A stretch of DNA of 64,000 nucleotides. It comes from Cetorhinus maximus. Taxonomy: Eukaryota. Within the stretch, counting starts at the first letter, position 1; every line of letters starts with the position of its first letter. The notes beneath the pieces were generated by a model. The model was given only the letters and a program-made list of their open reading frames with translations, was not told where the DNA came from and ran no database searches. The DNA lies in the NCBI RefSeq assembly GCF_964194155.1, contig NC_135901.1, forward strand, positions 34,038,001-34,102,000, written 5' to 3'. Position numbers and translations under genes: made by a program. Positions 1,531 to 63,529 of this stretch are shown here, in pieces.

Positions 1531-1901
1531 ATTACCGGCCTGATCATAACATAAACTAAATGGTCGGCCATAATCAGTGGAACGAGGACAGAGTCAAACT
1601 TTCACGGATGGTATTTTTGGAACTGGAGTGAAGATTGTTGAAATGCTTTATGCCGATCTGCTGGGCTCCTCCATCATTGAGGATGGGATTATTTCTGGGG
1701 CCTAATCATCCACTGCAGCTGCAAGGACAAAATCAGCTACCGATGCAGCATATTAAACTTCAGTCCGTTACAGGGATTTACTAACATCAGGAGAACCAAA
1801 CCCCAACTATCAAAATGAACATGGTTTAGTCGTTGATGCGATTAACAGCAGCAATAACAGTGAATACAACCTCTGGAGCCATTTGTGAACTCGCTGGTGT
1901 G

Positions 1902-4900
1902 TCAGCAGTTGGGATAGCTGAGTGAATCCCTTCCCACACTTAGAGCGGGTGAACAGTCTCCCTTCAGTGTGAACTCGCTGGTGTGCACTGAGGTTGGATG
2001 AAGACCTGAATCTCTTTCCACAGGAAGTACAGCTAAATGGCCTCCCCTCAGTGTAAATTCGCTGGTGAATGGTGGTGTCTCCGCGGTGTGAATACGCTGG
2101 TGTCTCAGCAGGCTGGATAACTGAGTGAATACCTTCCCACACTCGGAGCAGGTGAACGGTCTCTCCCCAGTGTGAATCCGCCGGTGTCTCAGCAGGTCAG
2201 ATGACTGAGTGAATCCCTTCCCACACTCGGAGCAGGTGAATGGCTTTCTCCCCCTGTGAACTCGCTGGTGTCTCAGGAGGTCAGATGACTGAGTGAATCC
2301 CTTCCCACACTCAGAGCAGACGAACGGTCTCTCCCCAGTGTGAATTCGTTGGTGTCTCAGCAGGCTGGATGACCAAGTGAATACCTTCTCACACTCGGAG
2401 CAGGTGAATGGTCCCTCCCCACTGTGAACTTGCTGGTGTCTCAGCAGGTCAGATGACTGAGTGAATCCCTTCCCACACTTGGAGCAGGTGAATGGTCTCT
2501 CCCCAGTGTGAATTCGCTGGTGTGTTCGCAGGTTAGCTGAGTAAGTGAATCCCTTCCCACACTCAGAGCAGCTGAATGGCCTCTTCCCCCTGTGAACCCT
2601 CTGGTGTCTCAGCAGGTTAGATGACTGAGTGAATCCCTTCCCACACTCAGGGCAGACGAATGGTCTCTCCCCTGTGTGAATTAGCTCATGTGTTCGCAGG
2701 CTGGCTGAGTAAGTGAATCCTTTCCCACACTCAGAGCAGGTGAATGGCCTCTTCCCCCTGTGAACTCGCTGGTGTCTCAGCAGCTCAGCTAACTGAGTGA
2801 ATCCGTTCCCACACTCGGAGCAGGTGAACAAATTTTTCCCCCTGTGAACTCGCTGGTGTCTCAGCAGGTCAGATGACTGAGTGAATCCCTTCCCACATTC
2901 AGAGCAGGTGAACGGTCTCTCCCCAGTGTGAATTAGCTGGTGTGTTCGCAGGTTGGCTGACTGAGTGAAGCCCTTCCCACACTCAGAGCAGGTGAATGGA
3001 CTCTTCTCACTGTGAACTCGCTGGTGTCTCAGCAGCTCAGATGATTGAGTGAATCCCTTCCCACACTCGGAGCAGGTGAACAGTCTCTCTCCACTGTGAA
3101 ATAGCTGGTGTCTCAGCAGGCTGGATAACCGAGTGAATACTTTCCCACACTCGGAGCAGGTGAATGGTCTCGCCCCACTGTGAACCTGCTGGTGTCTCAG
3201 CAGGTCAGAGGACTGAGTGAATCCCTTCCCACACTCGGAGCAAGTTAATGGCCTCTCTCCAGTGTGAACCCGCTGGTGTCTCAGCAGGTCAGATGATTGA
3301 GTGAATCCCTTCCCACACTCAGAGCAGGTGAATGGTCTCTCCCCAGTGTGAATACGCTGGTGTGTTCGCAGGTTAGCCGATTGAGTGAATCCCTTCCCAC
3401 AATCGGAGCAGGTGAACGGCTTTATCCCCCTGTGAACTTGCTGGTGTCTCAGCAGGTCAGATGACTGAGTGAATCCCTTCCCACATTTGGAACAGGTGAA
3501 CGGCCTCTCTCCAGTGTGAAGCTGCTGATGTCTCAGCAGGCTGGATAACCGAGTGAATACTTTCCCACACTCGGAGCAGGTGAACGGCCTCTCTCCAGTG
3601 TGAACCCGTTGGTGTGTCAGCAGGCTGGATAACCGAGTGAATACCTTCCCACACTCGGAGCAGGTGAATGGCCTCTCCCCACTGTGAACCCGCTGGTGTC
3701 TCAGCAGGTCAGATGACTGAGTGAAGCACTTCGCACACTCGGAGCAGGTGAATGGCCTCTCTCCAGTGTGAAATTGCTGGTGTCTCAGCAGGCTGGATAA
3801 CCGAGTGAATACTTTCCCACATTCGGAGCAGGTGAACGGCCTCTCTCCAGTGTGGACCCGCTGGTGTCTCAGCAGGTCAGATGACTGAGAGAATCTCTTC
3901 CCACACTCAGAGCAGGTGAATGGCCTCTCTCCAGTGTGAACTCGTTGGTGTGTCAGCAGGCTGGATAACCGACTGAATACCTTCCCACACTCAGAACAGG
4001 TGAATGGTCCCTGCCCACTGTGAACCCTCTGGTGTGTCAGCAGGTCAGATGACTGAGTGAATCCCTTCCCACACTCAGAGCAGGTGAACGGCCTCTCCCC
4101 AGTGTGAACTCGCTGGTGTCTCAGCAGGTCAGATGACTGAGTGAATCCCTTCCCACACTCAGAGCAGGTGAACGGTCTCTCCCCAGTGTGAATTCGCTGG
4201 TGTGTTCGCAGGTTGGCTGAGTGAGTGAATCCCTTCCCACACTCGGAGCAGTTGAATGGCTTCTTCTCACTGTGAACTCGCTGGTGTCTCAGCAGTTCAG
4301 ATGACTGAGTGAATCCCTTCCCACATTCGGAGCAGGTGAACGGCCTTTCTCTAGTGTGAAACCGCTGGTGTCTCAGCAGGCTGGATAACCGAGTGAATAC
4401 TTTCCCACACTCGGAGCAGTTGAACAGCCTCTCTCCAATGTGAACCTGCTGGTGTCTCAGCAGGTCAGATGACTGAGAGAATCTCTTCCCACACTCGGAG
4501 CAGGTGAATTGTCTCTCTCCAGTGTGAAATTGCTGGTGTCTCAGCAGGCTGGATAACCGAGTGAATCCTTTCCCACACTCGGAGCAGGTGAATGGTCCCT
4601 CCCCACTGTGAACCCGCTGGTGTGTCAGCAGGTCAGATGACTGAGTGAATCCCTTCCCACACTCGGAGCAGGTGAACGGCCTCTCCCCAGTGTGAATTCG
4701 CTGGTGTCTCAGCAGGTCAGATGACTGAGTGAATCCCTTCCCACACTCGGAGCAGGTGAACGGTCTCTCCCCAGTGTGAATTCGCTGGTGTGTTCGCAGG
4801 TTGGCTGAGTGAGTGAATCCCTTCCCACACTCGGAGCAGGTGAACGGCTTTTTCCCACTGTGGACTCGCTGGTGTATCAGCAGCTCAGATGACTGAGTGA

Positions 4901-5108
4901 ATCCGTTCCCACACTCAGAGCAGGTGAACGGCCTCTCTCCAGTGTGAATTCGCTGGTGTGTTCGCAGGTTGTCTGACCGAGTGAATCCCTTCCCACACTC
5001 GGAGCAGGTGAACGGCCTCTCCCTGGTGTGACTGCGTCGATGTTTTTCCAGCTGGGATGGGTAATTGAATCCTTTCCCACAGTCCTCACATTTCCACGGT
5101 TTCTCCAT
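1902..5108 (-). CDS. C2H2 zinc-finger protein A: 36 tandem fingers, then a frameshifted C-terminus (2 further fingers in another frame, ORF 1810-2142)
   Basis: 1068-aa ORF of CxxC-x12-HxxxH repeats with TGERP linkers; Kozak accATGg; upstream acceptor ttttacag at 5471-5478; frame change near 2075. Confidence 0.92.
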
Positions 5109-62095: not shown

Positions 62096-63274
62096 ATGGA
62101 GAAACCATGGAAATGTGGGGACTGTGGGAAGGGATTCAGATACCCATCTGAGCTGGAAAGTCATCGACGCAGTCACACCGGGGAGAGACCTTTCACCTGC
62201 TCCGAGTGTGGGAAGGGATTCACTCTACTAACCCACCTCACTTCACACCAACTTGTTCACTCAGATGTGAGACCTTTTAAATGTTGTGACTGTGAGAGGA
62301 GCTTTAAAAGCAAAAGAAATCTGCTGATACACCAGCGAGTTCACACCGGGGAGAGGCCGTTCACCTGCTCTGAGTGTGGGAAGGGATTCACTCAGTTATC
62401 CAATCTGCTGACCCACCAGCGAGGTCGCACTGGGGAGAGGCCGTTCACCTGCTCCGAGTGTGGGAAGGGATTCACTCGGTTATCCAACCTGCTGACACAC
62501 AAGCGAGTTCACACTGGGGAGAGGCCATTCATCTGTTCTGAGTGTGGGAAGGGATTCACTCAGTCATCTAATCTGCTGACACACGAGCGAGTTCACACTG
62601 GGGAGAGGCCGTTCATCTGTTCTGAGTGTGGGAAGAGATTCACTCAGTTATCCTACCTGCTGACACACCAGCGAGTTCACACTGGTGAGAGGCCATTCAC
62701 CTGCTCTGAGTGTGGGAAGGGATTCACTCAGTTATCCAACCTGCTGACGCATGGGCGGGTTCACACTGGGGAGAAGCCATTCACCTGCTCTGAGTGTGGG
62801 AAGTGATTCACTCAGATAAGTACCGTCACTTCATATCAACTTCTTCACTCTGACAAGAGACTTTTTAAATGTTCTGACTGTTAAAAGTGCTTTAAAAGCA
62901 GAAAGATTCTGTTGATATACCAGCGAGTTTACACCAGGGGGAAGCCATTCACCTGCTCCGAGTGTGGGAAGGGATTCACTCAACTAATCCAGATCACTTC
63001 ACATCAACGTGTTCACTCTGAAAAGAGACCTTTTAGATGTCCTGACTGTGTGAAAAGCTATAAAAGCAAAATGGATCTGCTGACACACCAGCGAGTTCAC
63101 ACTGGGGAGAGACTGTTCACATGCTCCATGTGTGGGAAAGGATTCACTCACCCATCCCTCCTGCTGAAACATCAGTGAGTTCACACTGGGGAGAGGCCGT
63201 TCACCTGCTCCATGCGTGGGAAGGGATTCAGTCATTCATCCACCCTACAGGCACACCAGCGAATTCACAAGTGA
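62096..63274 (+). pseudogene. ZNF gene G: 236-aa ORF (8 fingers, one broken), then premature TGA at 62804 and ~6 further fingers with stops
   Basis: accATGg start; acceptor ttttacag at 61735-61742; in-array stops at 62804, 62882 and 63176; may still make a truncated protein. Confidence 0.8.
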
Positions 63275-63529
63275 CTTCCAGGGTTGGATTCTGCTGTTAC
63301 TGCTGCTGTAAATCACTACCAGGACTGAACCACGCTCATTCTCACAGTTGGGGTTTGTTTTGGCTGATGTTACTAACCCCTGTAATTGGGCTGGAGTTCA
63401 ATAAAGGTTAAATAAATCAGCTTTGTGTCAAATACAGTGCTCGAGTCCATGATTTCTCTACGATAAGAGGAGACTGATTGATGTTCTGTTACTGACTTTT
63501 CTGGTCTTGGTCCTTTTCTGCTTTGTTGT

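What the first reader, a model, noticed from the sequence alone, without database searches (positions are those of the whole stretch)
1750..63440. Effector-less (no KRAB/SCAN/BTB) poly-ZNF family amplified as a stereotyped whole-gene cassette
Seen: seven finger arrays and about six remnants share one promoter module, one acceptor+leader and one 3' UTR, while the recognition-helix residues differ widely between genes. The ORFs begin almost directly in the fingers. Established: tetrapod KRAB-ZNF clusters undergo birth-and-death and target retroelements through the KRAB domain. Inference: this is an analogous rapidly turning-over DNA-recognition repertoire in a cartilaginous fish, acting without a known repressor domain or with an unrecognised one, and embedded among young CR1/Penelope copies that could be its targets.
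Basis: partly seen in the sequence, partly recalled or inferred. Interest (0 to 1): 0.72.

Follow-up and report, generated by a model that had tools for sequence, protein, structure and literature searches.

The report
Chromosome of finger-only zinc-finger genes
This window is one slice of a 65-megabase chromosome packed with an estimated 4,000 copied zinc-finger genes and pseudogenes whose reading frames hold almost nothing but predicted DNA-gripping fingers and no known silencing domain; they likely act as a fast-changing DNA-recognition kit, but whether they police jumping genes is untested.

Summary
Observation largely confirmed. Seven C2H2 arrays share a homologous acceptor+leader, 3' module and CpG-island module. 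Three ORFs are intact, three are frameshift-truncated and one is broken. The window is a slice of contig C24 (65 Mb): 26 arrays in 40 spaced 10-kb samples give about 4,200 arrays (2,800-6,200) and about 1,300 intact; 20 samples from other contigs hold none. KRAB has one hit genome-wide (C34); no BTB or SCAN hit listed lies on C24. In-frame stops close the leader in 45 of 50 genes, so an upstream effector exon cannot join through this acceptor. No usable splice data were obtained. Zinc-binding residues are under purifying selection (omega about 0.12). Helix -1/3/6 reach omega 1.5-1.6 (p about 0.002) with a shared dS, but this rests on one of three clades and is lost when dS is estimated per class. 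Corrections: copying is by multi-gene segments, there are two leader subtypes, and CR1-like density equals the genome background, so nothing here supports TE targeting. A once-per-gene lead finger is the best candidate for a partner surface. The scan found this family before on other DNA of this genome.

The parts
1902..5108 (-). g1 ORF, 1068 aa, 36 fingers from internal duplication; frameshift near the end leaves a 62-aa off-frame tail
5109..5470 (-). g1 leader (subtype A) after the acceptor at 5471, with dead fingers and in-frame stops
1740..1882 (-). g1 3' module (inferred 3' UTR)
8891..9283 (-). CpG-island promoter-type module for g1 (CpG o/e 0.99); a partial second copy lies at 7277-7547
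9476..9727 (+). partial leader and decayed fingers on the opposite side of the g1 promoter module
10889..11212 (-). promoter-type module without its own array
14443..15117 (-). g2 ORF, 224 aa, 8 fingers, intact; acceptor before 15431; 3' module 14306-14445
18620..19023 (-). promoter-type module for g2; leader fragment at 18367-18452 on the + strand
24778..25269 (+). promoter-type module plus adjacent leader duplicate (probable upstream non-coding exon) of g3
29216..30430 (+). g3 ORF, 404 aa, 13 canonical fingers (subtype B); further fingers off frame to about 30660; acceptor before 29109; 3' module 30668-30782
32492..32876 (+). promoter-type module for g4
35368..36237 (+). g4 ORF, 289 aa, 10 fingers, intact (subtype B); acceptor before 35259; 3' module 36233-36356
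38341..38559 (-). leader remnant without array
40784..40909 (-). 3' module remnant without array
42972..44402 (-). g5 ORF, 476 aa, 16 canonical fingers, intact (subtype A); acceptor before 44736; 3' module 42831-42976
46582..47010 (-). promoter-type module for g5 (CpG o/e 1.06)
48864..49339 (+). weak promoter-type piece and tandem leader remnant without array
54155..55000 (-). g6 pseudogene (subtype B): stops and frameshifts through the array; weak promoter-type hit at 55559-55736
60584..60937 (+). promoter-type module for g7
62096..63410 (+). g7: 236-aa ORF with 7 canonical fingers, then frameshift; acceptor before 61743; 3' module 63270-63410
47533..48582 (+). young LINE reverse-transcriptase fragment (CR1-like label recalled), 97-98% to copies on many contigs
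7564..8877 (+). retroelement fragment (Penelope-like label recalled; Pfam RVT_1 only at E 0.068), 94-95% to copies elsewhere

Best explanation
This is a slice of a chromosome-wide family of tandem C2H2 zinc-finger genes whose open frames hold only fingers, which multiplies by DNA segmental duplication and decays into pseudogenes, and which likely serves as a fast-changing repertoire of sequence-specific DNA binders. Shown: shared gene anatomy, stops in the leader, multi-gene duplicated blocks, gain and loss of whole fingers, purifying selection on zinc-binding residues. Inferred: transcription from the CpG module through non-coding exons; translation from the ATG just before the fingers; new specificities from changes at helix -1/3/6 and from finger shuffling. 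Most likely mode of action (about 0.4): the proteins bind repeated DNA and dampen it by occupying it or by recruiting a partner through the conserved lead finger, as an analogue of KRAB and FiNZ families without their extra exon.
For: 26 arrays in 40 spaced 10-kb samples of C24, 0 fingers in 20 samples of other contigs. Leader closed by stops in 45 of 50 analysable genes and 12 of 13 intact ones, with frames split 5/4/4. KRAB: 1 match genome-wide, on C34. BTB: 0 of 147 matches on C24. SCAN: 0 of the 150 scored of 4987 candidates on C24. No Pfam family in 38 non-finger ORFs around leaders, promoters and introns; only retroelement domains in 2 others. Blocks of 10-40 kb at 93-99% identity. Omega core 0.12-0.13, other 0.6, -1/3/6 1.5-1.6, p 0.001-0.003. 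Lead finger in 25 of 31 intact ORFs, once, first or second; its non-contact omega 0.25-0.29 against 0.62-0.64 (p 2e-4; p 0.03 with its own rate).
Against: No splice joint was recovered from RNA-like contigs, so exons are inferred. With dS estimated inside each class, pooled -1/3/6 omega is 1.3 (1.0-1.6) and not different from 1; only 1 of 3 clades is significant in either model. The youngest clade shows core omega about 0.9, that is no detectable purifying selection in fingers 1-4. About 70% of arrays are not intact (23 of 79; 8 of 26). CR1-like density is not raised on C24. The lead finger's contact residues vary as fast as those of other fingers, so it may simply read DNA. Gene conversion and unequal crossing-over were not modelled.
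Confidence: 0.65

Rival explanations
1. Mostly duplication churn: a recombination-prone chromosome copies these genes faster than selection uses them; a minority is functional and the fast change at contact residues reflects relaxed constraint, CpG mutation and conversion between fingers.
For: About 70% of arrays not intact. Core omega about 0.9 in the youngest clade. dS is also raised at contact codons (0.18-0.22 against 0.12-0.14) and per-class omega is 1.3, not significant.
Against: Core omega 0.06-0.09 in two clades. Contact omega stays 1.5 with a CpG term, and 1.9-2.1 in one clade (p 0.001-0.003). 25 of 30 copies of the young clade keep a full-length frame with lengths differing by whole fingers.
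Confidence: 0.2
2. A small unrecognised effector exon, like FiNZ, is spliced onto the finger exon through an acceptor that I did not call.
For: FiNZ is only 28 aa on its own exon and matched no known domain (PMC10547256, section 4). Emerson and Thomas warn that missing N-terminal domains may be missed exons (PMC2604467, passage). 5 of 50 genes are open from the acceptor, and 24 of 31 intact ORFs have some YAG in the open stretch before the ATG, 4 of them as pyrimidine-rich (8-9 of 14) as the family's own acceptors.
Against: In g3, g4 and g5 there is no YAG at all between the last stop and the ATG; g2's has 4 of 14 pyrimidines. The conserved acceptor leads into stops. The only ATG frame followed in the promoter module was found in 11 of 35 modules and ends after 17-46 codons.
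Confidence: 0.08
3. Functional finger-only regulators whose targets are not transposons (host promoters, satellites, the family's own promoters) or that act through RNA or protein binding.
For: Nothing here links the family to TEs. Wells et al. note that KZNFs often bind satellites, promoters and other KZNFs (PMC10547256, discussion passage).
Against: Metazoan ZNF counts track retroelement counts, and FiNZ knock-down derepresses TEs (PMC10547256, abstract and passages). This is analogy, not data on this family.
Confidence: 0.3

Closest known systems
Cyprinid FiNZ-ZNF family on zebrafish Chr 4q (Wells et al. 2023, PMC10547256; section 4, passages and parts of two supplementary files read)
   Same: Hundreds to thousands of tandem-finger genes concentrated on one chromosome; fingers on one exon; positive selection. 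Their supplementary table lists 475-3586 ORFs with 5 or more fingers in eight cartilaginous-fish assemblies, so large counts in sharks are on record; my estimate for C24 is about 2,900 (1,700-4,600).
   Different: No upstream coding exon can join through the conserved acceptor here; the family covers a whole 65-Mb contig; TE repression is not shown. The paper's main text has no occurrence of 'shark'.
Tetrapod KRAB-ZNF clusters and other lineage-specific poly-ZF expansions (Emerson and Thomas 2009, PMC2604467; passages read)
   Same: Canonical 28-residue fingers and linkers, clustered duplication, fast change at helix -1, 3 and 6.
   Different: No KRAB box on C24; selection signal weaker in my three clades.
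'ZNF-only' genes of tetrapods (PMC3971581; passages read)
   Same: Polydactyl fingers with no KRAB, SCAN or BTB; hundreds of models per genome; divergence by in-phase finger gain and loss.
   Different: Human ZNF-only genes are mostly old and conserved (136 of 212 of tetrapod depth); this is one related, fast-turning family with shared leader and 3' module.

Membership tests
Tandem (Kruppel-type) C2H2 ZNF genes | Repeated C-x2-C-x12-H-x3-H fingers with TGEKP-type linkers | tested here: met
   PF00096 10 and 13 stretches in g4 and g3
Lineage-specific poly-ZF expansion | Clustered duplication with gene birth and death | tested here: met
Lineage-specific poly-ZF expansion | Positive selection at helix -1, 3, 6 | tested here: inconclusive
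   omega 1.5-1.6, p 0.001-0.003 with shared dS; 1.3, not significant with per-class dS; 1 of 3 clades
KRAB-ZNF | KRAB box on an upstream exon | tested here: not met
   1 match genome-wide, on C34, 150 of 152 candidates scored
ZBTB (BTB-ZNF) | N-terminal BTB domain | tested here: not met
   0 of 147 matches on C24, 150 of 218 candidates scored; none in window ORFs scanned
SCAN-ZNF | N-terminal SCAN domain | tested here: not met
   none in window ORFs scanned; 0 of 150 scored matches on C24, but only 150 of 4987 candidates were scored
FiNZ-ZNF | 28-aa FiNZ domain (profile match) | not tested
   I had no FiNZ profile or sequence from a tool
FiNZ-ZNF | Upstream coding exon in frame with the finger exon | tested here: not met
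   stops in the leader in 45 of 50 genes; genomic test only
TE-silencing ZNF systems | Binding to and repression of transposable elements | not testable with these tools
   needs ChIP or knock-down; local CR1-like density is background

The most novel reading that the evidence does not exclude
A third, independent vertebrate transposon-surveillance system: a whole chromosome of finger-only proteins in which the effector has been folded into the finger array, with the once-per-gene lead finger recruiting a co-repressor while the other fingers diversify to follow new retroelements.
Probability: 0.2. Interest if true: 0.85.

Novelty: new variant of a known kind. Interest (0 to 1): 0.5.

Why it matters
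Tandem ZNF expansions are thought to track retroelements across animals, yet the studied vertebrate cases carry a separate repressor exon (KRAB, FiNZ, KRAB-like). A family of about a thousand intact finger-only genes on one chromosome is a natural test of whether fingers alone can do that job. The shared leader and start context would let one reagent knock down many members at once. My searches found no paper describing this chromosome or architecture; most subscription papers are outside the library.

Tried and rejected
RNA: no RNA holder listed for window 28900-36500. Contigs of four runs guessed to be RNA, laid on 28000-47500, were dominated by repeats; none of the 15 joints shown (2212 not shown) joined a promoter module to an acceptor. 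Exon structure therefore stays open. Protein searches with the g1 leader peptide and the g4 N-terminus found 9 and 1 candidates, none scoring; the second miss suggests the database lacks these proteins, so neither is evidence. The ESM Atlas gave only generic C2H2 clusters. The pairwise dN/dS (contact 1.5-2.0) is biased, because finger pairs were chosen on non-contact identity and 11 of 14 gene pairs are not near-identical; I give it little weight. The cryptic-acceptor cut-off (10 of 14 pyrimidines; 0 of 31) was too strict, since the family's own acceptors score 8-9 by eye; I report raw counts instead. Flanks were rejected as a neutral yardstick because they may be constrained. Retrotransposition as the copying route was rejected: g1, g2 and g5 share about 1.5 kb of intron at 78-83%. 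The Penelope-like ORF had no PDB match. No structure or complex job was run, and no binding-site prediction. Supplementary files 3-5 of PMC10547256 were not searched.
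Full report
What is in the window. Six-frame scanning finds seven C2H2 arrays: g1 1969-5090 (-, 37 fingers), g2 14449-15099 (-, 8), g3 29339-30409 (+, 13), g4 35413-36231 (+, 10), g5 42978-44384 (-, 16), g6 54364-54847 (-, 5 left) and g7 62114-63184 (+, 10). g2, g4 and g5 run intact to the last finger; g1, g3 and g7 are cut by frameshifts; g6 is broken throughout. Each array follows a pyrimidine-rich acceptor and a homologous leader and is followed by a homologous 3' module. 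Leaders form two subtypes, 81-91% alike within and 68-77% between. Subtype A (g1, g2, g5, g7) starts at an ATG six residues before the first finger, behind dead fingers. Subtype B (g3, g4, g6) starts further up. Upstream lie CpG-rich modules (o/e 0.46-1.06 against 0.36 for the window) with motifs that I recall as NRF1-, YY1- and CCAAT-like. 63 of 67 helix fingerprints are private to one gene. The six remnants exist, but one is probably an upstream exon of g3.

Scale. The window lies at C24:34.04-34.10 Mb of a 3.99-Gb genome; C24 is 65.2 Mb. A 611-base leader query drew 5054 candidates; the 40 scored lie on C24 or small contigs. One exact 31-mer of the leader occurs 169 times, and 99 of the 100 listed are on C24 between 1.7 and 52.9 Mb. 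In 864 kb chosen near known hits there are 79 arrays: 72 with a leader, 74 with the 3' module and 64 with a same-strand promoter-type module within 6 kb. Forty spaced 10-kb samples of C24 hold 26 arrays, 18 ORFs of five or more fingers and 8 intact-looking ORFs. This extrapolates to about 4,200 (2,800-6,200), 2,900 and 1,300 (560-2,600). Twenty samples from other contigs hold no finger, leader, promoter or 3' module.

Is an effector missing? KRAB matches once in the genome, on C34; I recall it as PRDM9-like. None of 147 BTB matches and none of the 150 scored SCAN matches lies on C24; the SCAN list is only the top of 4987 candidates. Of 44 window ORFs scanned with Pfam, two were finger ORFs, two gave retroelement domains and 40 gave nothing. 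The more general test is the reading frame. Of 79 arrays, 50 could be read from an automatically called acceptor (7 had no leader, 4 a cut leader, 18 no call; a few calls fell on a downstream AG). Only 5 of the 50, and 1 of 13 intact ones, are open to the first finger, and the frames split 5/4/4. In 31 intact ORFs the open stretch before the ATG is 4-53 codons. Seven, including g3, g4 and g5, have no YAG there; four have one as pyrimidine-rich as the true acceptors. A hidden FiNZ-like exon is therefore unlikely but is not excluded without RNA. The RNA attempts gave no splice joint.

How it multiplies. g1, g2 and g5 share about 1.5 kb of intron at 78-83%, so copying is at the DNA level. Among the sampled blocks, stretches of 10-40 kb holding several genes recur at 93-99% identity in both orientations, megabases apart. 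Within one clade of 30 copies at 94-100%, ORF lengths step by 28 residues, from 8 to 13 fingers. The stereotyped anatomy is inherited; the unit of recent copying is a multi-gene segment. The window's g2 and g4 have no close paralogue among those scored (best 84% and 83-87%).

Selection. Among intact ORFs, entropy peaks at helix -1, 3 and 6 (2.9-3.2 bits). I fitted codon models to collinear fingers of three clades: 18 unique sequences (of 30 loci), 8 (of 30) and 12 (of 30); broken, non-collinear and identical copies were left out. With shared dS, pooled omega is 0.12-0.13 for zinc-binding and core residues, 0.6 for others and 1.5-1.6 at -1/3/6 (p 0.001-0.003, with or without a CpG term). By clade it is 1.9-2.1 (significant), 1.3 and 1.5-1.9 (not significant), and the youngest clade has core omega near 0.9. 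With dS estimated within each class, pooled contact omega is 1.3 and not different from 1. The evidence is moderate, and conversion between fingers was not modelled.

A candidate partner surface. 25 of 31 intact ORFs carry, once and as first or second finger, a distinctive finger with Trp-Lys before the first Cys, Pro at +1 and mostly Glu at +5. Its non-contact residues are more constrained than those of other fingers (omega 0.25 against 0.62, p 2e-4; 0.29 against 0.64, p 0.03 when it has its own rate), while its contact residues change as fast. This fits a finger that reads DNA and also presents a fixed surface, but nothing shows binding to a partner.

Transposons. One LINE fragment has 39 relatives at 97-98% and one Penelope-like fragment 39 at 94-95%, all on other contigs, so young families are present. 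Cover by the CR1-like probes is 6.6% on C24 samples, 7.7% elsewhere and 10.9% in the window. Cover by the Penelope-like probe is 1.0% (s.e. 0.5) against 0 in 20 samples. Being neighbours says nothing about being targets.

Comparison with what is known. The family works like the poly-ZF expansions of Emerson and Thomas (PMC2604467, passages) and resembles FiNZ-ZNFs on zebrafish Chr 4q (PMC10547256, section 4 and passages), whose supplement lists 475-3586 poly-finger ORFs per cartilaginous-fish assembly. It fails membership of the KRAB, BTB and SCAN families, and lacks the FiNZ-type in-frame exon. 'ZNF-only' genes are a known class in tetrapods (PMC3971581, passages). PMC11603059 (passages) names only PRDM9 as a KRAB-type gene in whale shark, and PMC8455134 (passages) reports KRAB families lost in cartilaginous fishes. 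Of PMC11620358 I saw the abstract only and do not use it. I found no paper on this chromosome. The taxon was not tested here.

Verdict. The TE-defence role is analogy (about 0.4). The scan has reported the same family from other windows of this genome. Interest 0.5.

Noticed in passing
window 7284-7520 and 8871-9107: A 237-base piece of the g1 promoter module is duplicated (89% identical) on both sides of the Penelope-like fragment, leaving g1 with two partial modules.
   Followed up: partly
window 8891-9727, 18367-19043; 30 of 79 arrays in the blocks: Many promoter modules match on both strands or face a leader piece on the far side, suggesting head-to-head gene pairs with one partner often dead.
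   Followed up: partly
window 24778-25269 and 18 similar sites: One promoter subtype is followed directly by one or two leader duplicates, often ending in a canonical splice donor: the leader seems reused as a non-coding exon. Eight modules also carry a 21-codon upstream ORF.
   Followed up: partly
window 1902-5108: g1 has 36 fingers in one frame, built by internal duplication of a few finger types; the next longest array among the 79 has 17.
   Followed up: no
window 5109-5470, 15118-15431, 44403-44736: In subtype A the leader reads open for about 55 codons into a decayed finger, and shared TGA stops sit in the dead fingers: possibly a fossil coding spacer.
   Followed up: no
C24: None of the top 150 SCAN-like matches, which are spread over most other large contigs, falls on C24.
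   Followed up: no
window 63690-64000; C24 about 34.274-34.278 Mb: A 59-base tandem repeat at the window's end, and a 3.8-kb array with a 33-base period about 170 kb downstream.
   Followed up: no
L011:1363-1680: The genome's single KRAB-box match, on C34; recalled as PRDM9-like, not tested.
   Followed up: partly
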